Shown here: positions 1 through 58,689 of the stretch, in pieces | Numbering within the stretch: position 1 is the first letter of the stretch | Layout of the letters: each line of letters opens with the position of its first letter | NCBI GenBank assembly: GCA_043228905.1 | Contig: JBHGNT010000013.1 | Location: 4,216,001-4,280,000 of the forward strand | DNA: 64,000 nt | Reading direction: 5' to 3' | DNA from: Azolla caroliniana | Lineage: Eukaryota > Plantae > Polypodiophyta | The notes under the pieces: generated by a model | Told to the model about the DNA's origin: nothing | Database searches by the model: none | The model's input: the letters and a program-made list of their open reading frames with translations, nothing else | Translations under genes and position numbers: made by a program

Positions 1-1864
1 GAGCGTGCAGACTTCGGGTCTGTTTCCCATATCAACAATGCTCACAAAAGTCCGTCTTTGCTTGGAGTTTAGGGTTGTAGCCAACCGCCATCAGCCAATC
101 AAGTCTGGCTTGATGCATATGGCCAAGTCTGCCATGCCATAGGTTTGGGTCGGTCTTTTCAGCTATGTTCAGGGCCCCTTCTTGATTGATCGCCATCATT
201 GGGTACAAGTTATTGTACTTCTGCCCGCCTCCTATATTTAGGTTTCCTCGGCTGATCATCCATACCGAGTCACTTACAGTCGTTTTGTACCTATCTTCGG
301 CTAGCATTCCAATGGAGACCAAACTCCTTTTCAGATTAGGTATGTGCCGAACTCGGTGGAGGGTGATCATGTTGCCATTGGGCAATCAGATGGGAACCTC
401 TCCGGTCCTTGTGATTCTGCACTCCTGCCTGTTTCCTAGTCAGACTTTGCCATTGGCATCAGTTGAATAGTTCGAAAACCATTCAATGTTGGGGGTCACG
501 TGGAATGTGGCACCGGAATCCAGTAGCCACGTGTGTGCATCCTGTGCAGTGTAGAGAACTTCTCCGAACATCGAGTCCTCTAAAGAAAGGATTTCTCCTA
601 ATCGAGTGTCAGCAACGTTGATTTGGTTTCCTACTGGAATGTGGTCTGAGTCGGGTTGTCCTCGATTTTGCTCGGATCGCCGACCTCTCTCTTTCCTCTT
701 GATCGACCAACAGTCGGAAACATTGTGGCCAACTTTTCTGAGGTGTGTGCAGAATTCGCCATATCGGCCCGTTCTCGTCTTCGACCGTTATCGGTTTGGT
801 CTCCCCTCGGTTTTGATCGGTTCTGTCGACTTGTTCTCTCGTTCGACTCTGTCGGTCGAACAACTCGGTCGAGTGATGGGCTTCTGTCGATTCATTGATG
901 GAAAGTCCCATCGATTTTCGCCGAATGTCCTTGGTGAGGACTCAGCCGATCGTTTCATCCAGATTTACGATCGGTCGGCTATTGGCGTATGTCGTGCAGA
1001 ATACCTCCTAACTCATCGGCAAGCTCGATAGGAGGGCAAGGGTTTTCACTTCTTCTTCGAAGTTGATCCCTTGTGAGGAGAGTTCTGATGACACCCGGTT
1101 GAAGGTGTTGATGTCAGAGGTAGTCGGATCGGTTTCTCCATCTTCATGTTGAACAGTTGTTTGATCAAGATCAGTTTTGAAGATGACGACTATTTCTCGT
1201 ACACGGCTTGTAGTTTCCACCATAATGAGAACGTTGTTGTCTCTTTTGCCATGCTGAAGTAGACATTTTCGGCTAGGTGCATTCAAATGCAGGAGCGTGT
1301 GATTTCGTCCATTGATCTCCACTCATCGGCTGACATTGAAATAGGCTTTTTGGAGTCTCAAATGTCCTCGCCCTGTCTTCGAAAAATCAATATGTCCTAC
1401 ATCATCTCCTTCCATAGGGCAAAGTTTTTGCCGTCAAATTTTCGAATCTCAACTCCTGTACCAAATGTTGATGCCATGATTCTTTCGAAAGTGAGATTTG
1501 CTAACCTGGTCTTCTTCTTTTTAGATTTTTCTGTTGTTTGTTGCCGTTGAGCTAGGGATCGCTCTGATACCAATTGAAAGACGGATATGCATGGAAATGT
1601 ATGTGACAACCTGTCAGTTATGCTCAGCAAACAACACAAAGGGAAGGCAAGAAGATATAGACAAATGATAGATACACACAGATAAAATTTCATGAAAGCT
1701 CTATTTATTTCTGTTCTCTCTCTCTCTTAGAGACTCGATGCACAAGATGATTAAGTGATCTCTTCTTTACCACGTTAGGTTATTGCTTATATACTAAGCC
1801 CTAACTATATGGAAGAGTTCACACTAGGATACAAAGTGGAAGGAGTCGGCCTTTTATGCCAACA
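1..1864 (-). mobile_element. Degenerate Ty1/copia 5' part: LTR 1575-1864, tRNA-iMet PBS 1561-1572, gag/protease/GAG-pre-integrase remnants running off the window start
   Basis: Minus strand reads TGTTGG...CA LTR, then TGGTATCAGAGC. ORFs give IRKFDGKNFALWK (copia gag start), WLLDSGATFH (protease, near 500-530) and LWHGRLGH...FCEHC. It is inserted at the EMDSLHEN motif of the neighbouring copia. Confidence 0.85.
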
Positions 1865-3320
1865 GTTCTCATGCAGGGAATCCATTTCCTCTTGCATGGC
1901 ACTGTACCACTTCGCCTTGTGTACATCAGTCATGGCTTCTTCATAGCATTTTGGTTCCCCTTCATCAGTCAAGAGAACATACCTTCCTTTGTCTTAGAGG
2001 ATATCTTCTTCCTTCAGCAACCGGCTCAAATTCGGTTTCTTCTACCAGCTAATCTTCTAACTCAGATTGATGTGCATTAGCCTGTTGTTGTGTGGCGACC
2101 GACTCAAATTTGGCTTCATCAACCGGCTGTTGTCTACAGACTGGTTGTGTCGAAGGGGGATCAACTAGTGCCGACTCCATAATAGTAGTCGATTGGGAAG
2201 AAGACACTGGTTTTTGATGTCTCAAGTCTTCAATCGTCTGGTCTTCCATGAATACAACGTCATGGCTCCTTACCACCTTCTTATCAAGAAGATCCCACAT
2301 CCTGTACCCGAACTCATCTTCCAAGTACCCTAAGAATATGCAAGGCATGAACTTGTTGCCCAACTTTGACCTCTGATCTTTCGCAACATGCATATAAGCT
2401 AAGCATCTGAACACCCTTAAATCTTGGTAAGACACATTCCTTCCTGTCCACACCCTCTGTGGGACATCCCCCTTCGAAGGCACTAAGGGAGACCTGTTTA
2501 TAAGGTAGACAACCGTCAACATTGCCTTAGCCCAATACGACTTCGACAATTTTGCATGCGACAACATGCTTCTTACCCTTTCCATTATGGTTCGATTCAT
2601 TCTCTCTCCTACACCATTCCGCTTAGGTGTCTTCGGTACCGTATACTTAAGTTTGATGCCTTGAGTCTTACAATGCAACTCAAATTGGCCTCTATACTCG
2701 CCATTATTGTCTGTTCGGACAACTTTTAACTTCTGTCCAAATTCTCTTTGTACCCTTCCATTAAACTCTTTAAAGACCGACAACACTTGATCTTTAGACA
2801 CCAACACAAAAGCCCACACCTTTCTGTTGAAGTCATTAATAAATGTAACGAAGTACTGTCCACCACAGTTTGATGGGGCATCCACATAACACACATCTGT
2901 GTGAACCAGTTCCAAGGCATGTTCTCTTCTCATCAGAGGCCTAGCATGAAAGGCAGCTCCATTCTACTTTGCGGCCAAGCAGTTCACACATTTTTCAAGG
3001 TGTATTCCTTTCAATTCTAGTAGGAGATCCTTTTCAGCAAGGATATATATTCCCCTTTCACTCATGTGGCCAAGCCTTTTATGCCACAACTCGCCATCTG
3101 AGTCAGCCACCACATTTGCTTCATCTCAGCACAATTTTGCATGCATTACATACAATGTGTTCTTCTTTTGAGCTCGAGCCACAATCAGGCTCCCTTTACA
3201 AAACTTCCATGCACCATTATGAAAGCCACCGATGTAGCCTTCATCATCTAGCCGATATAAGATTCAGTCTGACATCTGGAACATGGCATACATCCTTCAA
3301 CATTGACCTGCAACTAGTGC
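1865..3320 (-). mobile_element. Degenerate Ty1/copia fragment (GAG-pre-integrase, integrase core, start of RT region)
   Basis: ORF 2049-2933 has LELVHTDVC, RTDNNGEY, NGVGERMNRTIMERVRSML and CIFLGY. Closely similar to the copies at 19247 and 50265. Confidence 0.9.
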
Positions 3321-3879
3321 GCACGTACCATATACATATGTAGACATATTATTTACATACATCCAAATACCTAAACTTGCAATTATACTTTACTTGCATC
3401 CACACAATCGGGCATTCAAACATTCATACACAAGTACATACTTACAATTGAGCTCATGTGCACATACACTCTCACTCACAACAAAGACTCTTAAAAGTAT
3501 ATGTTAGGGGGGTCATGGTTTTGAAGGTTGGGCCCTTCCCATGGTTAACACCTTTCTCCTCAAGAGGCTTCATAAACGCATGTGCGTTTAATTCATAAAC
3601 GGATATACACACATGGATTTTTAATTATGAATTATGAATCTTCTGTTTTGCCTGAACATATGTTTAATCATCATCATCTGTAGCTTATATGACTTGTATC
3701 TAGATCATCAAAGGGAATAGATGAAGAATATCTATCTTTGATTTTGGGAGAAAGTTACATTCTGATTCCACGTTGGTTTTGGGAGATCGATCTGACTTTG
3801 TTGATTACATTTAAAAGATGAACACGACCAACATTTGATGGTATTGGGGCAAGCAGCCACAGAAAATTAATGTATAAGA

Positions 3880-6440: not shown

Positions 6441-7446
6441 CAATGCCTTAGAGTCTATAACTTATATGATATATGATGTATCTAAGAAACTAAAAAGTAG
6501 GAACTTTATGAACTCTCTTTTTTTATTTTTTAAAACGAATATTTTTCCAAGCATTCAGGTGCATATTTGTATGCATTCGTTTGGTAACCTCCACGAATGC
6601 GAATATGTCCATTTATGTATGTATATATATATATAAGAGGCCTTCTTTTTTAGAGCCATTACTTCTAATCTTCTATTGCTCAATATTGATGTTGATGCAA
6701 GGACAAGTAGACGAGTTGTTGTTTTATTACACAGAAAATGGTACACAACACATAGAAAGAAGAACACAGAAAAAGGCACAAGAAAAAAATATTTTGACAG
6801 GCACACAAAAAACCCTCGTTTTATTAGTTTATATACCTAGTGTTAAATAGTGAGAATTACCTTTTTGGCCTTTCTCACTATTAGAGCTATATCCTAATGT
6901 AAGCTTGAGATAAGGATATAATAGATACAAAATAAGAAAGGAGAGAGAGAAAGAAGGATGTCGATCCACCCGACCAGCCCCGAGCGAAGGGATCAAGACG
7001 AACTCCAGCCTCGATCGACGTCCCATACCACCATTGTGGCGTCGAGTCATACCTAGTGTTGGCGCGCTCGCTGCAAGAGTTGACCCACCATGTCAGGGAT
7101 AGTACTAGAGGCAAGGAGAATTAGTACTAAAGGTAGAGGAGAAGAATGAGGATTAGTACTAAGAAGGGAAAGAGTGTGTGAGAACCACATGAGAGAGAGA
7201 GAGAGAGAGAGATAATGATGACAACAAGAAGTATATCATATTATAAGAAGAAAGATACAAGAACAACTAGGAGGCTTAAGACTGGCATTGAACCGATTTG
7301 GTTCTTGATAATGCCATGTGCCTCTTTTTATAGTAGCTTTAAGAATATTCTTGACATTTCTGGAATGTTCTAGAGAAATCTAGAATATACATGGATTTCC
7401 TAAATGAAATAATAAATGGAAATAATATTCTTTGTATTACAACTTA

Positions 7447-7504
7447 TAGCTTAATGGTAAGGCTTTCGCCCATGTGCCACAAGGTCATGGGTTCAAATCC
7501 TTTT
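7447..7504 (+). promoter_or_regulatory. tRNA-like Pol III A-box/B-box cassette in the chromovirus LTR (other copies 14149-14206 +, 53871-53928 -, 57293-57346 -)
   Basis: TAGCTTAATGG (A-box consensus) and GGTTCAAATCC (B-box consensus) at tRNA-like spacing. TTTT follows directly in three copies. Confidence 0.6.
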
Positions 7505-8798
7505 GAAACCATACCATTCTATATCATGCTATATCATGACACTTACCCCCCCTCCCCTTAAGACAACAAGTGCCACGAGTCGTCATAGATAGAGAACCTG
7601 GCTTGTTGGGATATCGTCGATGAAAGTCCTCAACAAGAGCTTGAGCATTTACCACATTCTCGACTGGTTCCCAAGTACGCTCACTTGGACTATAGCCTAG
7701 CCAATCGACCAAATGGTAGAGCTTGTTGCGGAAAATCTTGGAATCAAGGATGGCAGCTACTTCGTACCCTGGTCCTACCTCAAGCTCGATCGAGGGTGGA
7801 CGTGGTATAATACGATTCGGAATAGTGTTGTCGTGATACGGTTCGAGAAGAAAACTATGAAAAATCGGATGTATCCGTAGTTGCGAAAGTAGATCAAAAC
7901 GAAAAGCGACATCATTAATTTTTCTGATAATACGGGAAGGAGCTAATCACCGATAGTCCAATTTATCGCATGGTCGAGTAGTCTTGATGTGTCGTCGTAA
8001 TAGCCATACCTGATCTCCAATGTTAAAACTAGATGGAAGCCGATGATGATCCGCATAATCCTTTTGCGTTTGTTGAGCTTGTTGTAAATGAGTAGATAAG
8101 TCTACCTGTATCTTGCATAGCCGCTCCAAACGATCCTCTGCGCAAGGATTGATGGGTAACTCCGGAGTTTCGAATACACACTACCAAGGATGATATCCCA
8201 TATAAGCATAAAATGGTGTAACCCGAGTCGATGAGTGAACAAAGTTATTATACGCAAATTCTGCAAAGTGGAGAATATCCGCCCAGTCATCTTGTTGATA
8301 GTGTAGAAAACACCAAAGATATTGTTCCAACGTTTGATTCGTTCGTTCTACTTATCCGTCTATTTGCGGGTGATAGCCTGCAGAGAGTTCACATAGGGAC
8401 CTTGTGCATTTTGTAGAGATGCTTCCATAATTTCGAGACGAATTGGGGTCCACGGTCATTGATGATGTTATCAGGGAGGCCATGATGCCGACATACCTCT
8501 CGCATGACAGTTTCGTCAGTTTCTTCACTAATGATTTCCTTAGTAGAAGGCAGAAAATGTGCCATCTTTGTATATCAATCTACTACTATTGAGATCGCGT
8601 CGAATCCCTTTGAAACTGGAAGATCTATGATGAAATCTAGAGAAATGGATTGCCACAGCTTACTTGGAATTGGCAATGGTTCCAATAAACCATATGGATA
8701 ATGTCTTGGCATCTTTGCCCTGCGACATGTATCACATGTCCGAACATAGTCTTCGACAAATCGTTGCATATGAGGCCACCAAAATGATCGTTGAACTA

Positions 8799-10185
8799 TG
8801 TGAAGATTCGAACTCTTGACATGACCACGTTATAATCGAGTGTTATGTGTTAACCACACATCTAGCATATAATCATGTATATACTTCCTCATTGTAGGTT
8901 TTAGCTAGCATCATGTGCATAATTCCTCCCTTGTATTATTTATACTTGGCACATGTATGCGTACCTATTGCCTACATGCTCTATTGTATCACATGCATGC
9001 AACAGGTATGCATGCCACTTAGTATAAATAGTTGAGTTCACCTTGAAGGAATTCAAGGTGAACAGCGCCAGTCACGGACTTCCTATTCAACATTCATAGC
9101 CTTATTGATCATAGCCTCGTCATCCATGCTCCGTCTTAGTCCACGCTTGGTGTGTCCGTGACAGTTTGTTCACCTTCCAACTAGAAGCATCACCTATGTC
9201 CGTCATCGCCCTTGCTTCTAGAGTTACCATCATCACCGTACCATCATCAACATCGCTTCATTTCCTATCTTCCTCGCCATTTCTATCTCCTAGTTTCTTC
9301 TCATCATTTTCATTGGCTTTATATTTCTCCTCATCATTGTCTCTATTTTTTAGTTTCTTTCCCGTTCGTGTTCGTGTTCTAGTTGCCAGTGAGGGCTACA
9401 CAAGGTTGCTCACTCCCGTTGGTGTTCATGTTCCAGTTGCCGATGAGGGCTACACAAGGCCGCTCACTCCCGTTGGTGTTCGTGTTCTCTATGAGGACCG
9501 CACATGGTCACTCACACCTGTTTGTATTCGTATTCTAGCTCCTGGCAAGGACCACACATGGTCACTCATGCCCCTTGGTGTTCATGCTCCCCGTGAGGAC
9601 CGCACATGGTTGCTCACACATGTTGATATTTGTGTTCTAGTCCTAGGCAAGGATCACACATGGTCGCTCATGCCCGTTGGTGTTGAATACCTCGTCTTGT
9701 GGAAGGGTTACTCCTTGTCTAGGATTTACAAAATACTTTGGAGGTGATCTAAGATTTTCATCAACAATATCCCCTTAAGCCGACAAACTATTTGGGAAGG
9801 CATCGTTGGAGGGGGGATAATGTGAAGATTCGAACTCTTGACATGACCACGTTATAATCGAGTGTTATGTGTTAACCACACATCTAGCATATAATCATGT
9901 ATATACTTCCTCATTGTAGGTTTTAGCTAGCATCATGTGCATAATTCCTCCCTTGTATTATTTATACTTGGCACATGTATGCGTACCTATTGCCTACATG
10001 CTCTATTGTATCACATGCGTGCAACAGGTATGCATGCCACTTAGTATAAATAGTTGAGTTCACCTTGAAGGAATTCAAGGTGAACAGCGCCAGTCATGGA
10101 CTTCCTATTCAACATTCATAGCCTTATTGATCATAGCCTCGTCATCCATGCTCCGTCTTAGTCCGCGCTTGGTGTGTCCGTGACA
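8799..10185 (+). mobile_element. Non-autonomous miniature LTR element (TRIM-like); 365-bp LTRs 8799-9163 and 9821-10185; TSD AACTA
   Basis: Near-identical TG...CA repeats, AACTA at 8794-8798 and 10186-10190, PPT GGAGGGGGGATAA at 9808-9820. The 657-bp interior is non-coding. Inserted in the chromovirus integrase. Confidence 0.93.
9362..9690. repeat. Degenerate tandem repeats (about 40-55 bp) inside the TRIM interior
   Basis: Recurring gagg(a/g)c(c/t)acacatggtcactca...ccgttggtgttc units. Confidence 0.75.
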
Positions 10186-13100
10186 AACTAAACCCAATGT
10201 TTTAGTACTACCGAAATGCCCATATGTATATGTGTCATGACAATTTTGGACTACTCGAAGGCGACCAGAACCATTAGGAACATACAAGAGTTTCTTAAAG
10301 AATAGTAATCAATCATGACATTCGAAATGTCGATAGTTCGTACCAGGTTGTTGCGATTGCAAACAAGATGCCTGAGAGCGATCAATTTGTGTTAGAATTT
10401 CTTGAGCGAAAGCATCTATCTTCAAGTCCTCACGTACAGTATCTATAATGTGTGAATCCAATGGCATATCGAAAACCCGTGTTGCTTGAAGTCGTGTCGG
10501 TTGCAGGATTACTTGCTTTTGGTTATCGCAAGCTGGCACGCTAGGACGTGGTGCTAGATACGAGCGTCGTGATAATGCATCTGCCTTCCCTTGTTGCTTT
10601 CCCGAACGATATGTAATTTTGAAGTCGAAACGAGTGAGGGATTCGGCCCACCGAGCTTGACGTCAATTTAATACACGAGCATTCTGGAAGTAGGCAAGAT
10701 TTTTATGATCACTGAATACAGTGACTTGATGAGAAGATCCCTCTAGAAAATCCCTCCATTGCGTAAAAGAGTCCCCTATTGCTAATAGCTCCTTCTCATG
10801 AATTTCATAATTGATTTCGGCGGCATCAAACTTGTGCGAGTGGAAAGCCATAGGATGTAGCTTTTCATCATCACCTTGTTGTGACAAAATGCTACCCAAA
10901 GTGAAATTTGACGTGTCTGCCTCAATGATGAATGGTTTTTTCGGATCAACATGGGCTAGGATAGGAGCTAATGTAAATTCCTTCTTAAGACTCTCAAAAG
11001 CTATGTCTTCTTCTTTAGACCAAGCAAAGGACTGCCCCTTTTTGGTAAGTTGTGTGAGAGGCAGAATAAGCTTTGAGTAATCCTGTATAAACTTGCGGTA
11101 AAAATTGGCAAAGCGTAAAAAGCATTGCACATCTCGCAACGAAAGTGGATTCTACCACTCTACCATAGTTTTAACCTTAGCTGGATCCCTAGAGATGCCT
11201 TTCGAGGAGATGACATAACCCAGAAATTCCACGTGGTTGCATTCGAAACTACAGTTTTCCAATTTTGCATAAAGACCATGTTCTCAAAGCCGTTTTAGTA
11301 CTACTAGTACATGAGAATCATGCTCTTCTTGGGACTTCAAATAAACCGCTAGATCATCCAAATAGATGATCAAACAAACATCCAAGAGATCTCTGAATGT
11401 ATCATTTGCCATGTGTTGGATGACTGCTTGCACATTAGTGAGACCGAATGGCATGACCGTATACTCGAAGTGCCCATATCTAGTGCGAAACGCGGTCTTC
11501 CATTCATTTCCTAGTCAGATCTGTACAAGGTTATATGATCCTCGTAAGTCGATCTTTGTGAAGAACCTTGCACCATTGATCCGTTCTAAAAGACTTGAGA
11601 TAAGGGGGAGTGCATACCTATTCCTGATGGTGACCTTATTCAAGCCACGGTAATCTACGATGAGACAAAGTGATCCATCCTTTTTCTTGACAAAGAAAAC
11701 GGGTGCGCCAGCTAGAGATTTCGAATGTCGAATGAAACTGTTTTCCAAATTCTCCTCTATATAGGCTCGAAGGACTTCTTGCTCGGTTGGTGACAAGTTG
11801 TAGATCGGTCCCCATGGTGGCTCTTTTCCTAGTTGTAAATCAATGGGGCAATCATACGGTCGGTGGTGAGGAAGCATATTGTCTTATACCTTATCGAACA
11901 CATCGGCATAATGATGATACTTGTTTGGAAGTTGAACTGTGGATTCCTCTTTAGTGGTATTGGAAAGTTTTACTAATACCGCGAAGATGAACATTGCTTC
12001 CTTGCATCCTCCCTCACGCAATTGATGTAGCAAAATGGTTGCAATCCTATGAGTAGATCCTTGGGTTTGTCAATACCGAATTTCTCTTGTTCTGGGCTTC
12101 TAATTATATTAAATGATACTACACACACTAAATTATCTAGGACAATATTAACTGGCTCTGACTTTTCTATGATATTTCCAGAAGCAATGGGACGACCATC
12201 AATGACTACTATGGAGGCTGGACAAGGGAGTTTTCTTAGGGATATCTGATGAGCTTGGGCAAAATTCCTATCCATGAAGCAAGAATTAGCTCTGGAGTCT
12301 AGGAGTGCTAAAACATGTACTAGAGGGGTACTTTTAGTATGTACTATTACTTGAGCGAAGCACACATTGTTAACTTGCTTAGAGGGAATGGAACCACTAA
12401 TGGGCTACACCGATTTACGGTTGTCTAACCAAACGACTCTTATTTTGGCTGGACTTAGTCGTTTAACTCTTCTTCTAACTCACTAAGGACATCAAATTTG
12501 TTTGATAGACATGGGCTATTAGTACTATTAGGACTATCAGACACTCCTACTGAAATTGACTTGGGTTTAGTACAAGAAACTATTTGATTTACCTGTCTTA
12601 TTGGCCTATGTGGATAGTTTATTGTGATTTACCTGTCTTCTTGGCCTCCACAGTAAAGACATAATCGATTTACTCAGCGTCGTTGCTTTTCTTCTTCCGA
12701 TAATGGTCCACGATGACGTGTGGTGTTGATTTCCATCGGTGTTGGAGTATTTGCTAGATATGCATGATATGAATCCCTTGCAAATGGTTTTGCTACAACC
12801 GAGGCGTATGTGGGCTCCAACCTGGTCCTTGGCATTTGTAACTGGCGTTCTGAACATCGTTCGAAAAGTCGGTTATCGCATCGTACCGCTTGACTGATTG
12901 CCTCTGTGAGAAATTCTGGTTCTTCGGAGAAAGTCAGGAGAAATTCTTTGACATCATTTCGTACGTCGTATCGAAATTTCTCCATCAATGCTTGGTCAAC
13001 CCAAGGGATATCTGAAGCGAGTAGACGGAAATCTGCACCATAAGCAGAGGCTGGACAATCACCTTGATGTAATCGTCGGATTTTGTTGATTGTCGTCCTT

Positions 13101-13514
13101 ATGCTATCAATATCTCCAAAACAGGCTTTAAACTTGCTTATAAACTCTTCAAAACTATTTAGTTAGGGAGAACTTTTTTCCAAGAACAGAGCGAACCATG
13201 CCAAAGTTGAGCCGCTTAGTAACGTGCCTACTAGACCCACTCATGATGCATCAGTGGGATATCGGGAAGGATGCATTTGAATGACTGATCGTACCTGATT
13301 AAGGAATCCTCTGAACTGTGCGCATTCCATCAAATTTCATAGGAAGGCCGATCTTGGGCTCTTTATGAATCCCTTGAGTACTTGATCCTTGTTGTTGCAA
13401 TGCTACAATGCTTGCTTCAAGTTGTTGCACGCGTAATGTTAACTCCCCATGTTGTTGTTGCGCTTGTTGCTTTTCTAAAGAGATTTGTTGAAGATCCCCC
13501 AACAACTGTTGAAT

Positions 13515-13720
13515 TTTTTGTTCCAATGTGACAAACCTTTCTTTCAAGCACTACAACTCCGAGAAAACAATTTGGTATTCTTGAGCGCTAACAATTGCCA
13601 TTGTATTGGAGGAAGGTTTTTTGTTCCAATGCGACAAACCTTTCCTTCAAGCACTACAGCTCCGAGAAAACAATTTGGTATTCTTGAGCGCTAACAATTG
13701 CCGTAGTATTGGAGGAAGGA
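13515..13720. repeat. About 107-bp tandem duplication at the chromovirus gag start
   Basis: ttttttgttccaatg...actacaactccgagaaaacaatttggtattcttgagcgctaacaattgcc...ggaggaagg occurs twice. Confidence 0.85.
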
Positions 13721-15125
13721 AGGATAAGAAGATTAGTATGAAGGGAAGGAGGGATATGAAGCAGAAGAGGGAAAAATTGGTTCAAACTGTCAGGGATAGT
13801 ACTAGAGGCAAGGAGAATTAGTACTAAAGGTAGAGGAGAGGAATGAGGATTATTACTAAGAAGGGAAGGAGTGTGTGAGAACCACGTGAGAGGAGAGAGA
13901 GAGAGAGAGAGAGAGAATGATGACAACAAGAAGTATATTATATTATAAGAAGAAAGATACAAGAACAACTAGGAGGCTTAAGACTGGCGTTGAACCGATT
14001 TGGTTCTTGATAATGCCATGTGTGTCTTTTTATAGTGGCTTTAGGAATACTCTTGACATTTCTAGAATGTTCCAGAGAAAGCTAGGATATACATGAATTT
14101 CCTAAGTGAAATAATCAATGGAAATAATATTTTTTGTATTACAACTTATAGCTTAATGGTAAGGCTTTCGCCCATGTGTCACAAGGTCATGGGTTCAAAT
14201 CCTTTTGAATCCATACCATGCTATATCATGACACACCACAATGACAGAGTCTCGACGTAGTCGATAATGTGTCCAATGAGGGTACATATTTATAGCCAGA
14301 CCTAAGGCCTCGAGGCAAGTTCACACTTGGCCTAATGGGTTGTCCCTATCCCAAGGATTAAAAGTAACCCTGTCCTTCTTTACACTGTCGTTTAACCCTC
14401 ACACTTTATCGACGTGTATATAATACTATGATAAAACTTACCACGAGATATTATATGGTCATGCTAGTAACACTCACTATCTACCAATTTCCCACTAATG
14501 GCCAAACAAGGGATTAGCAAAGTTGATGGGAAGATTGCACTAGACCTACACATCCTACTTGATGAATATGTTACACAATATACATAAAATAGTGTGTAAC
14601 CTAAAGAGCTAAGTAATTCCCATCAAGTGACAACAATGCTCTAGTGCATCATGCGGTAGAGCTTTGGTCAATGCATCTGCGACATTTTCTTGAGAGACAA
14701 CTTTCTCAAGATTGATGTGGCCAAGAGCCATGCATTCTCGGATGAAGTGATATCGCACTCCAATGTGCTTGGTCTTTGCATGGTATATTAGGTTTTTAGT
14801 GAATGCAATGAAACTTTGACTATCGCAAAACAGTATGGGTCCAAGTTTAGGTATGCCCATGTCACAAGCTAATCTGGACAACCATAGAGCTTCCTTACAT
14901 GCTTCACTAACTGCGACATACTTTGCTTCTATAGTGGACAGAGTAGTACACTCTTGGAGGCGAGATCTCCAAGATATGGCACCTCCCATAAACTGAAAAA
15001 TATACCCCAAAATAGACTTTCTGCTATTAGAATAACCACCATAATCAGAGTTTTTATATCCAATAATGGATACATTTGCACCACCTAAACATAGACACTT
15101 ATTCTTGGTGCCACTCAGATATCTT

Positions 15126-19246: not shown

Positions 19247-22200
19247 TGTTAGGAATTGACGCTTTCAATTTCTTCACCTCTCGACCACAACCGAGGAAAC
19301 ACGAATCAATGCAGCAGAAAATCGAAAACACAGAGAGAGACTCGAATGCACAGGGTTTAGCGTGGAAAACCCTAGACGGGAAAAACCACGGGAGTGTAAG
19401 ACTCCAACTATCACTATACGCAGGGAATGTACAATGGCAAGCTGCAAGGTGACGACCTTGAGCTCGCTGTCCTCGCCACAGGCGGCGGTATTACACAGAG
19501 GCGTCTACCTCTTCCTTTCTCTCTCTCTCTCTCTCACTCTCTCTCTCGACTGCTCTCACTTCGCTCCCTCTAAGTGGAAAACAGAAAAAATGAGCAACAA
19601 CCAGAAAACTGTTTGCCCTAAGTCATATTTATACACATATGACTTTCGGGCTATTTACAAATATAGCCTCAGGGGCCCTTGGCAAACATATTCACAAATA
19701 TGTCCCCGCATCCGGATCTCTCTCCGGGTACATTCGTCATCCGGCTCCCTAGCCGGGGTCTTCATCATCCGGATCCGGAGCCGGGGTCTTCATCATCCGG
19801 ATCCGGAACCGGGTCTTCATCATCCGGCTCCGATAGCCGGGGTCTTCATCATCCGGCTCCGATACCGGGTACTCCTCATTCGGGTCTTCATTCCCGATTC
19901 CCGGACATCCGACCATCCCATCCGGAGGGACCGTAATCCCAACAAACTCCCCCTTCACTTCGTCATGGGATGTCTTTCCAGTCCGACCCTCTTCCGGCAC
20001 GCTTCCAGCTTGTCGGGTGTGAGCACTTTGGTCAGCATGTCTGACCCGTTCTCGTCCGTGTGGATCTTCGTCAACACGAACTCCTGGTCTTCTATCCTTT
20101 CCCGGATCCAGTGATATCTTCGTTGGATGTGCTTCGTCCGGGAGTGATAGGCCGCGTTCTTCGCAAGGTGGATGGCACTCTGACTGTCGCAGTAGAGTCG
20201 GTACTCCTCCTGCCGGATACCGAGCTCTCTAATGAAGTCCTTCATCCATATCATTTCCTTGCCGGCTTCAACAGCCGCCATGTACTCCGCCTCCGTGGTT
20301 GACAATGCAACCGTGTTCTGCAGCCTCGACTGCCACGAAACAGCTCCCCCTGCATACGTCATCACATACCCTGATGTGGACCGGCTGGTATCTGCATCAG
20401 CCGACATATCCGAATCGGTAAAGCCGTCGAGTTCGGGCTTACCGGAGCCGAATCAGAGGCACACGTTTGCCGTGCCCTTCAGGTATCGGAGTATCCACTT
20501 GGTCGCGTTCCAGTGCTCTTTGCCGGGATTGCTCATGTACCGGCTCACCACTCCGACTGCATATCCTATGTCCGGTCTTGTACACACCATTGCGTACATC
20601 AAGCTTCCGACGGCAGAGGCATATGGTACTTTCATCATGTCCTCCTTCTCAGCCTTTGTCTTGGGGCTTTGCTTGCTGGACAACTTGCAGTTTGCCGGGA
20701 GGGTTGACCCGACCGGTCTTGCTTCCGACATGTTGAACCGGTGAAGCACCTTTGTCACGTACTTCTCCTGTGACAGCCACAACTGCTTCTTCTTCCGGTC
20801 CCGGATGATGTGCATCCCTAGTATTTGCCTCGCCGGACCCAGGTCCTTCATTGAGAAGGTTCGGTGAAGCGCTTTCTTCAGCATCCGTATCTTGACCTGG
20901 TCTCGTCCGACGATCAACATGTCGTCCACGTACAGGAGGAGTATTAGAAAGTCTCCTCCTTCGAACTTCTTCACAAACACGCAGTGATCGGACTGCGTTT
21001 TGTGGTACCCTTCGTCGGTCATGAAAGAGTCGAACTTCCGGTACCATTGCCGGGGAGCCTGCTTCAGTCCGTAAAGGCTCTTCTTCAACCGGCATACCAG
21101 GTGCTCCTTCCCTTTCTTCTCGAATCCTTCCGGTTGCTGCATGTAGATCTCTTCTTCGAGGTCACCGTGAAGGAATGCCGTCTTCACGTCCATCTGTTCT
21201 ACCTCGAGGTCCATGCTTGCCGCTATGCTTAGCACCGTCCGGATGGAGGTCATCTTCACTACCGGGGCAAATATCTCGTCGAAGTCGACGCCCTTCTTCT
21301 GCTGGAACCCCTTCACCACGATCCTGGCTTTGTATCTCGGGGGGTTTCCGGCATCTCCCGGTTTCAGCTTGAACACCCACTTGTTTCGAAGTGCCCGCTT
21401 TCCTTTCGGCAACTCCACAAGTTCATATGTGTGGTTCTCATGCAGGGAATCCATCTCCTCCTGCATGGCACTTAACCACCTGCGGCTATGGGTGTCAAGC
21501 TTTGCTTCTTCAAAACTCTCCGGCTCCCCTTCGTCGGTTAGCAGCACGTGCTCTGGTTCCGGAAATCTCCGGGGGGCCCTTCTCTCTCTTAGAGGATATC
21601 TCCGTTCCGGAGCTTCGGTAACCGGCTCCTCCGTTTCCTCTTCATCCGAATCCATTTCGGGATCGGGGCCGGTTCCGGTATCATTTTCATCTTCCTCGGC
21701 CGGTTCTGTTTCTTCACCGTCTTCGGCCGGATCCTCGAGTGCTAACCGGTCCCTTGCCGGTCGGGACTGCTCCTCGTAGAGTTGATCCTCACTGGTCGAC
21801 TTGGATCTCTTCATCTTCTTCTCCGACTCCCAGTCGGCGAGTGTCTTGTCCTCCATGAAGATGATATCACGACTCCGGAATATCCTTTTGTCGACCGGGT
21901 CCCATACACGGTAGCCGAACTCGTCATCGCCGTAACCGAGGAATATGCATGGCCGGGTCTTTGGATCTAGCTTTCCTCTCCGGTCCTTTGCCACATGCAC
22001 ATATGCGAGACACCCGAACACCTTCAGATGCCGGTAGGATACTTCCCTACCGGTCCACACTCACTGCGGCGTGTCTCCGTCCAAAGGTACTGAGGGTGAT
22101 CTGTTTATCACGTATGTCGCCGTCGACATTGCCTCAGCCCAAAACCCCTTGGGTAATTTCGCATGCGCCAGCATACTCCGGACCCTCTCCATTATGGTCC

Positions 22201-24784
22201 GGTTCATCCTCTCGGCCAGCCCGTTCAGATTCGGCGTCTTCGGCACAGTAAACTCGAGCCGGATTCCCTTCGAGCGACAATACTCCTCGAACTGCCCCCG
22301 GTATTCCCCTCCGTTATCCGCTCGTATCGCTTTTAGCTTCTTGCCGGATTCCCTTTCCACTCTCGCGTGGAGTTCTTTGAAGACGCACAACACTTGGTCC
22401 TTTGTCTTCAACGGTGCCGTCCACAGCTTCCGGCTGTGGTCATCAATGAATGTCACGAAGTACTGGGCTCCGCCATGTGACTTCGTTTCTACTTGACACA
22501 CGTCAGTGTGCACCAACTCCAGTGGTGCGCTACGTCTCGTCGGTGGCCTTGAGTGGAAGGAGGTTCGGTTCTGCTTACCGGCCAGGCAATCGGTGCACTT
22601 CTCCAGGTGCACATGCTTCACTGGAATAAGGTTGTCTTCTGCAAGCCTCTTCATCCCCTTCTCACTCATGTGGCACAGTCTCTTGTGCCACAGCTCACCG
22701 GCAGTGTCGGCTGCCACGTTCAACTCTTCCGGACACAACCAGGCATTCATAAGGTACAATGTGTTGACTTTCCGGGCCCGAGCCACTATCAGGCTCCCCT
22801 TGCTGAACTTCATTACGCAGTTCCGGATGCTACCTGTGTAGCCTTCATCGTCTAGCCTCCCGGCCGAAATCAGGTTCAATCGAACCTCCGGAACGTGTCG
22901 GACATCCTTCAGCAACATTTTGCATCCGGTCGAGGTTGTCAACCACACGTCTCCTATGCCGGCAATCCGGCACGTACCTTCATTTCCCATCCGAACACAG
23001 CCATGCTCACCGGCTCTGTAGGATGAGAAGTATCTTCTTTCCGGGGTCAGGTGGAACGACGCTCCGGAATCGACCACCCAGGTAGTCTCATCGCCAGCAA
23101 TGTTTAGTTCACCTTCTTCGGTGATGAGCATGATCTCCTCTTCACTTGCCGCGAGTGCCGTCGTTCCTTTCCGGTCCTGCCCTCGCCGATCCGAACCATT
23201 CCGGTCCGTGGCTCCCCGGTAAGCACCGTTCCGTTCCGAAGACTTCTTCGAATCGGTGTCGTCGGCTCCGTTGTCTTTTCGGTAATGCCGACAATTCTTT
23301 CGGAAGTGCCCCGGCTTCCCACAGTGGAAGCATGTGGGCCTTCCTCTTGACTGCGACCGGGTCCCCGACTTCTCCCGTCTTTGCGGACTCCGGTTCCGTT
23401 GTCTTCCCCGATCCGATTCGGTAAGCAGCATCTTCGGATCGGAGGCCGGTTCTTTATCTCTCCGACGCGCTTCTTCGTTCAAAATGCTTGTCTTTACCGT
23501 TTGTAGGGACAAGTTATCTTCGGTGCAGGAGGTGCTGAGAGTCACCACCAAGTTCTCCCAGCTTGCCGGCAATGTACACATCAGGATGATGGCTTGCATT
23601 GCATCCTCCAACGGGAACTTGATCGCCGCAAGCTGGTTCACGAATCCCATGAACGTGCTTACGTGTTCCACCATACTCTCGTCGTCCCGGTACTTGAGGT
23701 TCACTATCTTCCTCATCAGGGAGGTCCGGTTCAACGCATTCTTCCTCTCGTAGAGGCCCGACAGCTTCTGCCACATCTCATATGCGTTGGTGTCGTTCGC
23801 CACATGTTGTAGAACGCTCACGTCGACGTATTGCCGAATGGTTGCAACGGCTTTCCGGTTCAGAAGCCTCCATTCCGTCTCAAGTACCCCCTTGGGTATT
23901 TCCGACCTGTCGATCGTTTCATACAGGTCCCGAACAATGAGCAGATCCTCCATCTTTATCTTCCAGTCGGCGTAGTTCTGCGCATTCAGCACTATCATCC
24001 CAGGCTGCCCGCTGCTGCCGCCTTCCATTTTCTGCACTGCAGTCGCTCTGATACCAGATTGTTAGGAATTGACGCTTTCAATTTCTTCACCTCTCGACCA
24101 CAACCGAGGAAACACGAATCAATGCAGCAGAAAATCGAAAACACAGAGAGAGACTCGAATGCACAGGGTTTAGCGTGGAAAACCCTAGACGGGAAAAACC
24201 ACGGGAGTGTAAGACTCCAACTATCACTATACGCAGGGAATGTACAATGGCAAGCTGCAAGGCGACGACCTTGAGCTCGCTGTCCTCGCCACAGGCGGCG
24301 GTATTACACAGAGGCGTCTACCTCTTCCTTTCTCTCTCTCTCTCTCTCACTCTCTCTCTCGGCTGCTCTCACTTCGCTCCCTCTAAGTGGAAAACAGAAA
24401 AAATGAGCAACAACAACAAAACTGTTTGCCCTAAGTCATATTTATACACATATGACTTTCGGGCTATTTACAAATATAGCCTCAGGGGCCCTTGGCAAAC
24501 ATATTCACAAATATGTCCCCGCATCCGGATCTCTCTCCGGGTACATTCGTCATCCGGCTCCCTAGCCGGGGTCTTCATCATCCGGATCCGGAGCCGGGGT
24601 CTTCATCATCCGGATCCGGAACCGGGTCTTCATCATCCGGCTCCGGAACCGGGTCTTCATCATCCGGCTCCGATAGCCGGGGTCTTCATCATCTGGCTCC
24701 GATACCGGGTACTCCTCATTCGGGTCTTCATTCCCGATTCCCGGACATCCGACCATCCCATCCGGAGGGACCGTAATCCCAACA
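19247..24784 (-). mobile_element. Young, structurally complete Ty1/copia; LTRs 19247-19944 and 24060-24784; PBS 24045-24056; TSD CTATG
   Basis: TGTT...AACA LTRs are nearly identical. CTATG at 19242-19246 and 24785-24789. PPT (GAAGGGGGAG on minus) at about 19947-19956. Confidence 0.97.
19955..24028 (-). pseudogene. Copia gag-pol polyprotein (gag, CCHC, PR, INT, RT, RNase H) in one frame with two premature TGA stops
   Basis: ORFs 22061-24037, 20453-22060 and 19955-20407 share a frame. Stops at 22061-22063 and 20453-20455. Motifs: CFHCGKPGHFRKNC, WVVDSGAS, QMDVKTAFLHG, LYVDDML, RTKHIQRRYH. Confidence 0.95.
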
Positions 24785-53315: not shown

Positions 53316-56300
53316 AACACCACCAATATATGTCAGTCAATACATCCCTTTGATTGATGAAGGTGAACCAGAGTGCAATGAAGAAGCCACAACCGACAAG
53401 CATAGTGAGAAGTGGCTAAATGCAATGCAAGAAGAGATGGATTTCTTGCACGAGAATTATACCTACGACCTAGTAGAGCTACCAAAAGGTAAAGAGAGCA
53501 CTCAGGAATAAATGGGTCTACAAATTGAAGATTGGAGAAGCCGACAATGCGCCCAAGTATAAAGTTCACATTGTGGTGAAGGGTTTCCAACATAAAAAGG
53601 GTGCCGACTTCGACGAGATTTTCGCACAAGTCGTGAAGATGACATCCATCTGAACTGTTCTGAGCATAACTGCCAGCATGGACCTAGAGATCGAAGAATT
53701 GGATGTCAAGACAACATTCTTGCATGGGGAGCTAGATGAAGAGCTTTACATGCAACAACCCGAAGGCTTTGAGGAGAAAGGGAAAGAGAACCTGGTGTGT
53801 CGACTGAAGAAAAGCTTGTATGGTCTAAAACAAGCTCCACACTTGTCATGATATAGCATGGTATGGCATTAAAAGGATTTGAACCCATGACATTGTGTCG
53901 CATGGATTGAAGCCCTACCATTAAGCTATACATTGTAATACAAAAAATATTGTTTTCATTTATTATTTCACTATAGAAAATTGATGTATATTCCAGATTT
54001 CTCTGGAACATTCTAGAAACTTCAGGATTACTCCTGATAGCACTATAAAAAGAGGCACTAGGCATTATTTCAAACCAATTCGGTTCAAACTGTCAAGGAT
54101 AGTACTAAAAACAAAGAGAGAATTAGTACTAGAGAAGGAAAGTACTATGAGGATTAGTACTACGAGGAAGGTAGTGTGTAGGACGAGAGAGAGAGAGAGA
54201 GAGAGAGAATGAAGATAACATGTGATATATTATATGAAGAGTAAGTACAAGAATAGCTTGGAGGCTTAAGATTTTACGTTGACGTTTTTGATAAGGTAAA
54301 AGCTAGTACTCTTCCTCATTATCAACCGTATAATTGGCCCATTGATTTACAAACAAGAAAAGAACCACCGTGGGGATCAATCTACAACTTGTCACCAACA
54401 GAGCTTGAAGTTCTTCGAGCTTACATAGAGGAAAATTTGGCAAACAGGTTCATTCGACATTCGAAATCTCCAGCCGGTGCACCCATTTTCTTCGTCAAGA
54501 AAAAAGATGGCTCACTTCTTCTAGTCGTGGATTACCGTGGCTTGAATAAGGTCACCATCAGGAATAGGTATGCACTTCCCTTGATCTCGAGTTTTTTAGA
54601 AAGGATTAATGGCGCCAAGTTTTTCACAAAAATTGACTTACGAGGAGCATATAAACTTGTACGGATTCAAGTGGGAGACAAATGGAAGACAGCTTTCCGC
54701 ACTTGATATGGGCACTTCGAGTATACAGTTATGCCATTCGGCCTCACCAATGCGTCAGCAGTCTTCCAACACATGGCAAATGATATATTCTGAGATCTTT
54801 TGGACATCTGTTTAATCATCTACTTGGATGATATGCTAGTTTATTCAAAGACATAGGAGGAGCATGATTCTCATGTACTATTAGTACTAAGACGACTACG
54901 ACAACATGGTCTTTATGCAAAGCTGGAGAAGTGTAGTTTTGATTGTAGCCAAGTGGAATTTCTCGGCTATGTCATTTCCTCGAAAGGCATCTTTATGGAT
55001 TCAGCTAAAGTCCAAATTGTGTTAGAGTGGCAGACTCCACATTCGTTGTGAGATGTGCAATGCTTTCTAGGATTCGCAAACTTCTATCGCAAGTTTATAC
55101 AAGACTACTCAAATTTTATTTTGCCGCTCACACAACTTACAAAGAAGGGTCAATCATTTGTTTGGTCTAAGGAAGCGGACATGGCATTTTAAGGTCTCAG
55201 GAAAGCATTTACATCGGCTCCTGTTTTAGCTCATGTTGATCCGCAAAAACCATTTATCATGGAGGCAGATGCATTAGATTTCACCCTCGGTAATATTTTA
55301 TCACAACAAGGTGACGAAGAGAAGCTACATCCCTTGGCGTTTCACTCACGCAAATTTGACACCGCCGAAATCAACTACGAGATACATGACAAGGAGCTAT
55401 TAGCAATAGTGGACTCTTTTGCACAATGGAGGCATTTTTTAGAAGGATCTCCTCATCAAGTCACTGTATTCAATGATCACAAGAATCTTGCCTACTTTCA
55501 GAATGCTCGCGTGTTAAATAGACGACAAGCTCGGTGGGCTTAGTTCCTCACTCATTTTGATTTTAAGATTACATATCATCTGAGCAAGCAATAGGGGAAT
55601 GCAAATGCATTATCTTGACGTTCATATCTAGCTCCTCGTCCTGATGATCTAGCCTTCGACAATCAAAAGCAAGTAATCCTGGGTCCGACACGACTTCAAG
55701 CAACGTGGGTCTTTGAAAATTGACACTCCATTGTATTCCTGCATTATCGATACCATACGTGAAGATTTGAAGACGGATGTTTTCACTCAAGCTATTCTAG
55801 ATCAAATTGATTCTTCTCGGGCATCTTGTTCACGATCACAAAAACCAGGTATAGATTATCAACAATTCAAATGTCATAATGGATTACTCTTCTTTAAGAA
55901 ACTTTTGTATGTTCCCAATGGTTCGTGCCACCTTCGAAGTACAAAATTGTCATGACAAATATACAGTCAGACGTTTTGGTAGTACTAAAACATTGGATTT
56001 AGTACAACGATCATTTTGGTGGCCTCATATGTGAAGATTTGTTGAAGACTATGTTCGAACATGTGATACATGTTGTAGAGCGAAGATGTTGAGACATCAT
56101 CCATATGGTTTGTTGGAGCCATTACCGATCCCAAGCAAACCATGGCAATCTATTTCTCTCGATTTTATCACAGATCTTCCGGATTCAAGGGTTTTCAATG
56201 CAATCTTAATAGCGGTAGATCGATTTACTAAGATGGCACATTTTGTGCCCTATACTAAAGAAATTACTAGTGAAGAAACCATCGTAATTATTATGCGTGA

Positions 56301-57538
56301 AGTATTTCGGCATCATGATCTTCCGGACAGTATCATCAATGATCGTGGACCGCAATTCGTCGCTAAATTTTGGAAGCATCTCTTTTAAATGGTCAAGGTC
56401 ACCTGCAACCTCTCCTTCAGCTATCATCCCCAAACAAATGGACAAGCTGAACGTACCAATCAAACGTTGGAACAATATCTTTGGTGTTTCGTAAGCTATC
56501 AACAGGATGATTGGGCGGATATTCTACATTTTGGTTAATTTGCTTATAATAATTCTATCCACTCATCTACTAGGGTTTCACCATTCTATGCTTATATCGG
56601 CTACCATCCTCGCTGGTGTATGTTAGAAACTCCTGAGTTACCCACAAATCCTAGTCTAGAGGATCATTTGGAGCGGTTACGACGAATTCAGGTAGAACTA
56701 TCTACCCACCTACATCACGCCTAGCAAACACAGAAGGACTATGCAGATTGTCATCAGCTTCCATCCCCTTTTAATATTGGAGATTGAGTATGGCTATTAC
56801 CATGGCACATCAAGACTACTCGATCGTGTGACAAACTGGATTCTCAACGGTTAGGCCCTTTCCGTATTAATGGAAAAATTAATGATGCTACTTTTGGCCT
56901 TGATCTTCCTCTGCAACTACGGATACATCCCCCATACATCCAATATTTAATAGTTCTCTCCTAGAACCCTATCAAGATAGCGTTATCCCAAATCGTATTA
57001 CACCACCTCCACCCCCGCTCGAACTTGAAGATGGACCTGAGTTCGAGGTTGCTGCCATCCTCAACTCCAAGATTGTTCGCAACAAGCTCTATTATTTGGT
57101 TGATTGGCTCGAATATAGTCCAAGCGAGCGTACTTGGGAACTAGTGATGAATTTGGCGAATGCTCGAGCTCTTCTTGAAGACTTCCATCGTCAATATCCA
57201 AACAAACCAAGTCCTCAATCAAAGACAACTTGTAACACTCGTCATTTAAAAAGTGGGATAGTGTCATGATATAACATGGTATGGCATTTAAAGGATTTGA
57301 ACCCATGACCTTGTGTCACATGGGTTGAAGCCTTACCATTAAGCTATACATTGTAATACAAAATATAGAAAATTGATGTATATTCCAAATTTTATAGAAC
57401 ATTCTAGAAACTTCAGGAGTATTTGTGATAGCACTATAAAAAGAGGCACAAGGCATTATTTCAAACCAATTTACGCCAGTCTTAAGCCTCCTAACTATTC
57501 TTGTACTTACTCTTCATATAATATATCACTTGTTATCA

Positions 57539-57603
<65 letters not shown>

Positions 57604-57605
<2 letters not shown>

Positions 57606-58649: not shown

Positions 58650-58655
<6 letters not shown>
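57604..58655 (+). mobile_element. 5'-truncated non-L1 LINE (RTE/RTEX-like) 3' end
   Basis: VTPVLLYGVEVW and C-terminal CTLC...EYHTLIQC. The 3' UTR ends in gataatataatctctct. Confidence 0.8.
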
Positions 58656-58688
<33 letters not shown>

Positions 58689-58689
58689 C

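What the first reader, a model, noticed from the sequence alone, without database searches (positions are those of the whole stretch)
8799..10185. Self-priming TRIM with its own R/PBS pair, nested in the chromovirus
Seen: a 1387-bp non-coding element with 365-bp LTRs differing at only about 3 positions by eye and a perfect TSD. After the 5' LTR comes GTT-TGTTCACCTT (9167-9176), the exact complement of AAGGTGAACA (9055-9064), 32 nt after the start of TATAAATA. The motif is also part of a perfect 12-bp hairpin, GTTCACCTTGAA/TTCAAGGTGAAC. The geometry matches the host chromovirus but the sequence differs. Known: described plant TRIMs typically use tRNA-Met PBSs. Inference: a recently mobile non-autonomous parasite of a self-priming chromovirus, giving independent support for the mechanism.
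Basis: partly seen in the sequence, partly recalled or inferred. Interest (0 to 1): 0.75.

Follow-up and report, generated by a model that had tools for sequence, protein, structure and literature searches.

The report
Self-priming parasite of plant Tcn1 retrotransposons
A small, many-copy plant jumping element that lacks any recognisable gene carries a copying start site that pairs with its own end repeat instead of a tRNA tail, so it likely primes its own copying as yeast Tf1 does and likely borrows its enzymes from the Tcn1 retrotransposons whose signals it shares.

Summary
Observation confirmed: 365-bp LTRs (3 mismatches), TSD AACTA, PPT, and a 10-nt site after the 5' LTR complementary to the LTR 32 nt past TATA, inserted antisense in a chromovirus integrase region. 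It is a repeat family: 1,827-3,758 contigs per run in 4 of 4 DNA runs. Primer and PBS change together in five distinct pairs (two subfamilies of the element, three autonomous LTRs). Their frame, CA|AC(G/A)CCAGTC...TGACA-GTT-TG, stays fixed and also occurs, by eye, in published Selaginella SM-Tcn1. A second R-U5 stem (9-19 bp) flanks the duplex. Best reading: a non-autonomous, Tf1-type self-priming element mobilised by Tcn1 chromoviruses; no helper with the same primer was found or is needed. Two additions: a U3/R hairpin is predicted to mask the primer whenever upstream U3 is in the RNA, and antisense tRNA-like A/B boxes sit in U3 of both element and helpers. The transcription start is not mapped, and 2 of 11 junctions are discordant. 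Self-priming in Tcn1 was already predicted, and this scan has noted similar non-autonomous elements in other genomes. A new variant of known kinds.

The parts
8794..8798 (+). left target-site duplication AACTA
   Evidence: empty site in paralog
8799..9163 (+). 5' LTR, 365 bp, TG...CA; short form of the family LTR (61 nt shorter in R-U5 than L011)
8805..8813 (-). antisense pol III B-box core GTTCGAATC in U3 (second copy 9827-9835)
8854..8864 (-). antisense A-box-like motif, 2 mismatches to a recalled generic consensus, 51 nt before the B core (second copy 9876-9886)
9023..9030 (+). TATA box; 42 nt from its start to the primer 3' end (42-44 in all 11 junctions)
9036..9063 (+). 12-bp U3/R hairpin; 5' arm repeats 9 nt of the PBS, 3' arm holds the primer
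9055..9065 (+). predicted self-primer AAGGTGAACA, plus an 11th base (G here, A in relatives) that pairs with the last T of GTT
9063..9073 (+). invariant frame after the primer, CA(A/G)CGCCAGTC, shared with host, L054 and SM-Tcn1
9071..9079 (+). R arm of the R-U5 stem (9 bp here; 16 and 19 bp in L011)
9154..9162 (+). U5 arm of the R-U5 stem
9164..9176 (+). GTT spacer and primer-binding site TGTTCACCTT
9177..9807 (+). non-coding interior: pyrimidine-rich leader, then 48/54-bp tandem units (9360-9671)
9808..9820 (+). polypurine tract GGAGGGGGG plus ATAA abutting the 3' LTR; same layout as host and L054
9821..10185 (+). 3' LTR
10186..10190 (+). right target-site duplication AACTA
7091..14233 (-). 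host Tcn1-type chromovirus, decayed (gag, RT, RNase H, SH3 and group I chromodomain fragments), TSD CACCA, LTRs about 94% identical
13991..14001 (-). host self-primer AAATCGGTTCA (10 of 11 pair with the host PBS at 13784-13774)
14149..14201 (+). host U3 antisense A box and B box at tRNA spacing, followed by TTTT
54077..54095 (+). fold-back junction in a second host-family copy: U3 and primer, then AAC and the reverse complement of U5-R

Best explanation
This is a recent copy of a many-copy, non-coding LTR retrotransposon family whose primer-binding site pairs with its own LTR, which likely primes reverse transcription with the first 10-11 bases of its own RNA and is likely copied and integrated by the proteins of Tcn1-clade chromoviruses. 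Steps: (1) pol II likely starts about 32 nt after the TATA start, near 9055 (inferred, not mapped). (2) The RNA 5' end pairs with the PBS next to a small internal loop and an R-U5 stem (predicted fold; covariation shown). (3) Helper RNase H would cut after base 10 or 11, as shown for Tf1 (inferred). (4) RT would extend through GTT into U5, and the PPT would prime the plus strand (PPT shown). (5) Helper integrase would act on the TG...CA ends and leave a 5-bp TSD (ends and TSD shown). Because the primer acts in cis, its letters are free to drift; the helper likely recognises the invariant frame, so any Tcn1 family with that frame could serve. In the RNA's 3' LTR the U3/R hairpin is predicted to hide the second copy of the primer.
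For: Complementarity is beyond chance, 13 of 20,000 shuffles. Of 11 non-duplicate LTR-PBS junctions in the window and 68 loci, 8 pair perfectly over 10-11 nt and 1 has a single mismatch. They form five distinct perfect pairs; a primer against another type's PBS gives 2-8 mismatches in 10. Subfamily B differs from A at 4 of 10 primer positions, all compensated; indels that fit its PBS appear in 4 of 4 DNA runs (table 4). TATA-to-primer distance is 42-44 nt in all 11. The R-U5 stem is 9, 16 and 19 bp in the element's three junctions. The published SM-Tcn1 sequence shows by eye the same frame, a 14-nt primer/PBS match and a 44-nt spacing. L054 is an intact gag plus 1,234-aa pol with chromodomain and the same frame; its RNase H is 73% identical to the host's, and 86 of 95 RT residues match SM-Tcn1 by eye. 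Family evidence: 42-59 contigs per run leave the LTR end into unlike flanks, and 7 of 63 metagenome loci (6 contigs) hold the LTR, 4 of them (3 contigs) the interior. LTR divergence is 0.8% against about 6% for the host.
Against: The transcription start is unmapped. Raw poly-A reads of a related organism (167 and 116 laid of about 12.6 million read) show no pile-up of starts, and the largest group (44 reads in X23) carries U3 letters upstream of the primer, i.e. read-through. 2 of 11 junctions are discordant (B-type primer before an A-type PBS, both in one contig, L015/L016). That contig is a high-coverage 3,283-bp repeat, so mosaic assembly or recombination is likely but unproven. The third duplex of the Tf1 pretzel is not predicted in any of 7 units. 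If the RNA starts at or before 9036, the hairpin outcompetes the PBS. No sequence similarity links the element to any helper beyond short signals (blastn-short, E<=1). CAACGCCAGT was part of my search pattern, so its invariance is independent only for the two window elements, L011-B, the second L054 LTR and SM-Tcn1.
Confidence: 0.85

Rival explanations
1. The site is a cryptic tRNA PBS (half-molecule or internal tRNA priming) and the match to the LTR is incidental.
For: Half-tRNA priming exists in plants and in fungal Helenus. No host tRNA set was available, so internal tRNA matches were not screened.
Against: The site lacks TGG. Half-tRNA priming was found only in Copia lineages. Five different PBSs each match their own LTR, which would need five coincidences.
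Confidence: 0.04
2. The RNA starts upstream, the hairpin hides the primer, and the PBS match is a by-product of template switching between hairpin arm, primer and PBS; priming happens some other way.
For: The hairpin wins when the start is at or before 9036. The hairpin 5' arm tracks the PBS in subfamilies A and B. The laid RNA reads include U3.
Against: The first L054 LTR has a perfect 11-nt pair with no hairpin over the primer (-2.1 kcal/mol), and SM-Tcn1 shows none by eye. The fixed TATA spacing puts the start at the primer (plant TATA about 30 nt upstream; recalled).
Confidence: 0.05
3. Priming uses the same sequences but between molecules: the primer is cut from a co-packaged sister RNA or from the 3' R copy.
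For: The discordant B-primer/A-PBS junctions and the fold-back copy at 54077-54095 suggest that primer sequence can anneal to a PBS outside the normal fold, if they are real.
Against: The intramolecular fold is predicted at probability 0.94-1.0 for 9 of 10 primer pairs. The 3' R copy is predicted to be masked. The discordant junctions may be assembly mosaics.
Confidence: 0.05
4. A one-off deletion derivative of the host or another autonomous element.
For: The copy has a shortened LTR and interior compared with L011.
Against: No similarity to the host, its paralog or L054. Thousands of contigs cover all 30 bins in 4 of 4 runs. L066 has the same short LTR (349 of 365 identical) at another site.
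Confidence: 0.01

Closest known systems
Tcn1 clade chromoviruses of mosses and lycophytes (SM-Tcn1; Novikova et al. 2010, PMC2864245; Neumann et al. 2019, PMC6317226)
   Same: 5-bp TSD, self-complementary PBS, and by eye the same frame CA|AC(G/A)CCAGTC and TGACA-GTT-TG, the same TATA spacing and a similar PPT as SM-Tcn1. The host and L054 carry a group I chromodomain; L054 has overlapping gag and pol.
   Different: The element encodes nothing and shares no extended sequence with the helpers. It has a longer R-U5 stem and a 12-bp primer-masking hairpin. The antisense A/B boxes are not visible by eye in SM-Tcn1.
Tf1/Tf2, Tj1, Tosmo (Tf1/sushi self-priming; passages in PMC7175516, PMC4600332, 10.1101/2022.12.06.519325)
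   Same: A primer of about 11 nt at the predicted RNA 5' end pairs with a PBS next to the LTR, with an adjacent R-U5 duplex.
   Different: Those are autonomous and, for Tf1, experimentally shown. The third duplex of the pretzel is not predicted here.
Plant TRIMs and other non-autonomous LTR elements (Gao et al. 2016, PMC4717578; sugar beet survey, PMC13570524)
   Same: Two LTRs, PBS position, PPT, 5-bp TSD, no coding capacity, tandem arrangements in contigs.
   Different: Larger (1.4 kb here, about 2 kb implied by L011). The PBS is not tRNA-derived, whereas all six PBS motifs in 115 sugar beet families were. Gao et al. found no TRIM in Physcomitrella patens.
Helenus / TRIMp3 (Kojima 2024, PMC10886601)
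   Same: Non-autonomous LTR element with tRNA-like A and B boxes in the LTR and no functional tRNA fold.
   Different: Helenus uses tRNA primers, and its Selaginella member has the boxes in sense with a TGG PBS. Here the boxes are antisense in U3, are shared with autonomous helpers, and a TATA box remains, so pol III is unlikely to make the element's RNA.

Membership tests
TRIM (non-autonomous LTR retrotransposon) | two LTRs with TG...CA ends and a TSD | tested here: met
TRIM (non-autonomous LTR retrotransposon) | no retrotransposon protein coding | tested here: met
   no Pfam hit for the one long frame; frame not conserved
TRIM (non-autonomous LTR retrotransposon) | PPT before the 3' LTR | tested here: met
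TRIM (non-autonomous LTR retrotransposon) | multi-copy family | tested here: met
TRIM, classical definition | length under 1 kb | tested here: not met
   1,387 bp; fits only the length-free usage of PMC13570524
TRIM, classical definition | PBS complementary to a tRNA 3' end | tested here: not met
   starts TGT, not TGG; internal tRNA matches not screened
Tf1-type self-priming | at least 10 nt in the LTR complementary to a site 0-5 nt after the 5' LTR (criterion of Neumann et al.) | tested here: met
Tf1-type self-priming | primer and PBS co-vary | tested here: met
   8 of 11 perfect, 1 single mismatch, 2 discordant
Tf1-type self-priming | primer is the RNA 5' end | tested here: inconclusive
   TATA spacing fits; RNA reads give no start
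Tf1-type self-priming | three-duplex pretzel | tested here: inconclusive
   central and R-U5 duplexes predicted; third not predicted in 7 of 7 units by equilibrium folding
Tf1-type self-priming | RNase H cleavage releases the primer | not testable with these tools
   needs biochemistry
Tcn1 clade (host and L054, not the element itself) | group I chromodomain with aromatic cage | tested here: met
   Y, W and Y align with the CDYL chromodomain
Tcn1 clade (host and L054, not the element itself) | RT-RH-IN placement in the clade | tested here: inconclusive
   86 of 95 RT residues of L054 match SM-Tcn1 by eye; no tree was built
Helenus / TRIMp3 | tRNA-like A and B boxes in the LTR | tested here: met
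   antisense; 11 of 3,000 shuffles as good
Helenus / TRIMp3 | boxes oriented to transcribe the element, with a tRNA primer | tested here: not met
   boxes point out of U3; TATA present; PBS self-complementary

The most novel reading that the evidence does not exclude
This plant Tcn1 lineage and its parasite share an undescribed LTR control module. A working antisense pol III (TFIIIC) unit in U3 sits back to back with the pol II promoter and shields or drives the precise start that self-priming needs. A U3/R hairpin gates priming to correctly initiated RNA. The parasite plugs into any helper through an invariant cleavage frame conserved as far as Selaginella, not through primer sequence.
Probability: 0.25. 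Interest if true: 0.72.

Novelty: new variant of a known kind. Interest (0 to 1): 0.48.

Why it matters
Self-priming has been shown experimentally for yeast Tf1 and only predicted for plant Tcn1. A gene-free element keeps only the cis signals, so it and its helpers separate what is free (primer letters) from what is fixed (the frame around the cut). That gives a short, testable list of RNase H determinants and natural compensatory variants. It also explains why PBS-against-tRNA pipelines would miss such families, and it suggests that helper choice does not depend on primer match. The antisense pol III boxes in autonomous LTRs would, if bound by TFIIIC, add a new use of tRNA-derived DNA in retrotransposons.

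Tried and rejected
No whole genome is held, so copy number and a genome-wide helper search could not be run. ARAGORN found 0 tRNA genes in the window, and Rfam gave no tRNA match in the window or in 9 loci: the box region is not a foldable tRNA. The viral scan gave 5 unrelated loci. 36 of 63 metagenome loci did not match the element, host, L054 or L032 LTRs and were left out; L020 and L028 resemble an LTR promoter but showed no matching junction. No RNA holder was listed. The protein search named no clade. The Atlas look-up of the 210-codon frame was unavailable. ACGCCAGT right after the LTR end at 60919 looked like a post-primer joint but is Copia RT coding sequence at the target site; rejected. 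A generic 11-mer box score did not separate the element's boxes from shuffles (15-16 of 60 for the window LTRs); only the test with a 9-nt B core restricted to the first 130 nt did, and that window was chosen after seeing the helpers. PMC109269 and PMC6388632 were not held. Neumann et al. Additional files 1 and 3 were too large to read and may list these primer sites. Supplements of the bioRxiv fission-yeast paper were not seen.

Full report
1. Observation. The element spans 8799-10185. Its LTRs are 365 bp with 3 mismatches, and AACTA is duplicated on both sides. After the 5' LTR come GTT and TGTTCACCTT, the exact complement of 9055-9064, 32 nt from the start of TATAAATA. In 20,000 shuffled LTRs, 13 hold such a match. 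A PPT abuts the 3' LTR. The element lies on the + strand inside a minus-strand chromovirus (7091-14233, TSD CACCA) with gag, RT, RNase H, SH3 and chromodomain fragments. A paralogous host copy shows the empty site. Its LTRs differ by 0.8% against about 6% for the host's, so it is the younger; no absolute date is given because no rate is known. A 210-codon stop-free frame crosses the interior. It has no Pfam match, its ATG is changed in most laid depth, and tandem units in relatives are out of frame, so I treat it as compositional.

2. It is a family. No genome was held. Of 24 runs listed, 20 hold part of the element, under six organism codes and three metagenome labels. I laid 4 DNA runs, one per code A-D: 1,827-3,758 contigs each, with all 30 bins covered. 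In each run 42-59 contigs leave the LTR end into mutually unlike flanks (agreement 0.35-0.36). These depths are not copy numbers. A metagenome scan with a TATA-plus-frame pattern gave 63 loci. Of these, 27 match the element, host, L054 or L032 LTRs; 7 (6 contigs) hold the element's LTR and 4 (3 contigs) its interior. L066 has the same short LTR at another site (349 of 365 identical). L011 shows a longer form and a second subfamily, B. blastn-short found no similarity to the host, its paralog or L054 at E<=1, so this is not a deletion derivative of those elements.

3. Covariation. Across the window and all 68 loci there are 15 LTR-PBS junction rows, 11 after dropping 4 duplicates (L016 is the same contig as L015). 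Eight pair perfectly over 10-11 nt, one (the decayed host) has one mismatch, and two are discordant. The perfect ones form five distinct pairs: subfamily A AAGGTGAACA/TGTTCACCTT, subfamily B AAGGGATTCA/TGAATCCCTT, host family L048, and two LTRs in L054. A primer set against another type's PBS gives 2-8 mismatches in 10. Indels that fit the B-type PBS appear in all 4 DNA runs (table 4), and B-type letters appear as loose ends in X16 and X17. The two discordant rows join a B primer to an A PBS in one high-coverage contig made of a 3,283-bp repeat. They may be assembly mosaics or recombinants; they count against the reading until resolved. High-coverage contigs (L011, L015, L054) are unreliable for long-range order, so I use them only for local LTR-PBS units.

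4. The fixed frame. All 11 junctions share CA|(A/G)C(G/A)CCAGTC after the primer and TGACA-GTT-TG before the PBS, with 42-44 nt from TATA to the primer end. Part of this was in my search pattern; the two window elements, L011-B and the second L054 LTR were found without it. The published SM-Tcn1 record (PMC2864245, supplement S3, read whole) shows by eye the same frame, a 14-nt primer/PBS match and a 44-nt spacing, although its authors reported no evidence of self-priming (passages). Folding from 9055 gives the primer/PBS duplex, a small internal loop formed by the frame, and an R-U5 stem. The whole-sequence z-score is only -1.7, with 13 of 200 shuffles as good. The stem is 9 bp here, 16 and 19 bp in L011, and 3-4 bp in the autonomous LTRs. 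The third duplex of the Tf1 pretzel is not predicted in 7 of 7 units. The base after CA pairs with the last T of GTT, so the primer may be 11 nt, as in Tf1 (PMC7175516, passages).

5. The helper. The host chromodomain keeps the three cage residues, the group I type of Tcn1 (PMC3350952, passages). L054 holds intact overlapping gag (388 codons) and pol (1,234 codons; PR, RT, RH, IN, SH3, chromo), the prevailing Tcn1 layout (PMC6317226, Additional file 5 read whole). Its RNase H is 73% identical to the host's, and 86 of 95 RT residues match SM-Tcn1 by eye. No tree was built. All 6 non-duplicate junctions of the element's LTR in the loci lead into the same non-coding leader, so no autonomous partner with the same primer was seen. 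By inference none is needed, because the primer acts in cis. The source is inferred to be a non-seed plant; earlier scan notes on this genome say moss or fern (unchecked).

6. The hairpin. Its 5' arm lies upstream of the predicted start. In silico it wins over the PBS when the RNA starts at or before 9036 (P 0.91-1.0) and loses from 9040 on. It would therefore hide the primer copy in the 3' LTR and in read-through RNA. A hairpin over the primer is predicted for A, B, the host family and the second L054 LTR, but not the first L054 LTR, and is not visible in SM-Tcn1. It is optional, and its function is inferred.

7. Antisense pol III boxes. On the opposite strand near the LTR 5' end, the autonomous LTRs carry an A box and a B box at tRNA spacing, followed in the host family by TTTT. 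Shuffle tests in the first 130 nt: host 0, L054 1 and 2, subfamily B 5 and this element 11 of 3,000; a Copia LTR in the window has no such pair. The box consensus is recalled, the looser score was not significant for this element, and Rfam and ARAGORN see no tRNA. The region was not part of the search pattern. This resembles Helenus (PMC10886601, parts 1-4 of 6 and supplement passages) but points away from the element's promoter and is shared with autonomous elements. Function is untested: TFIIIC barrier or activator, small antisense RNA, or SINE relic.

8. RNA. Two raw poly-A runs of a related organism gave 167 and 116 reads on L011:1050-2120, with no place where many molecules begin or end. 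The largest group (44 reads) is B-like and includes U3 letters upstream of the primer. This neither maps nor excludes the predicted start.

9. A possible fossil. A second host-family copy (53844-60919, inserted in a Copia RT) has U3 and primer followed directly by AAC and the reverse complement of U5-R, and then RT sequence. That is the sequence that extension of the primer on the PBS would give. A DNA inversion between the two inverted repeats plus a deletion gives the same junction, so it is only compatible with the model.

10. What is known. Self-priming was predicted for 83% of 1,500 Tcn1 elements and 89% of TAR (passages). The pretzel is described for fission yeasts (10.1101/2022.12.06.519325 and PMC4600332, passages). 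Gao et al. found no TRIM in P. patens (PMC4717578, passages and supplement rows). Sugar beet non-autonomous families all had tRNA-derived PBSs (PMC13570524, passages and Introduction). PMC6934838 and PMC3601003 (passages) mention self-priming only for autonomous elements. Nine searches turned up no description of a self-priming TRIM in plants or of antisense pol III boxes in Tcn1 LTRs. The library lacks most subscription papers and Repbase, and Neumann's element table could not be read. This scan has noted self-priming non-autonomous elements in other genomes (unchecked), and none similar in sequence.

11. Verdict. The element works like Tf1/Tcn1 (0.85) and is a non-autonomous LTR element outside the classical TRIM limits. 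It is a new variant of known kinds, interest 0.48, resting on natural compensatory variants, a frame conserved to Selaginella, and two unexplained LTR features.

Noticed in passing
window 53844-60919: Second host-family chromovirus inserted in a Copia RT. Its 5' end is folded back exactly at the primer/PBS (junction 54077-54095), gag-PR is missing, and its 3' LTR lacks most of the primer and is split by a 3.2-kb insert.
   Followed up: partly
window 14149-14201, 7447-7499, 57294-57346, 53876-53928; L054, L030, L032: Antisense tRNA-like A/B boxes in U3 of autonomous Tcn1-type LTRs, followed by TTTT in the host family, as if a self-contained pol III unit.
   Followed up: partly
PMC2864245 supplement S3 (SM-Tcn1), bases 392-414 and 492-513: The published element has a 14-nt primer/PBS match and the same frame, although the paper reported no evidence of self-priming (by eye).
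   Followed up: yes
L015/L016; L011: Tandem arrays that alternate A and B LTRs; B primer joined to A-type R-U5 and PBS, as strand transfer between co-packaged RNAs would give, or an assembly mosaic.
   Followed up: partly
L050 874-1303; L016 1122: A longer LTR form begins TGTCATGGACA, the same letters as the R arm of the R-U5 stem; the window copy begins about 24 nt later.
   Followed up: partly
window 57601-58673, 59755-60825, 62714-63784: Three copies of a 1.07-kb repeat (91-95% alike) with an RT frame at 59012-59803 between the first two; type not determined.
   Followed up: no
window 19247-24784: Young Copia element on the minus strand with a TGGTATCAGAGC (tRNA-Met type, recalled) PBS; served as a control lacking the A/B boxes.
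   Followed up: partly
window 42831-43292: Frame with a GHMP kinase N-terminal domain, probably an exon of a host gene.
   Followed up: no
L020, L028: TATA plus CAACGCCAGTT at the same spacing in an LTR-like context, but no matching PBS junction found.
   Followed up: partly
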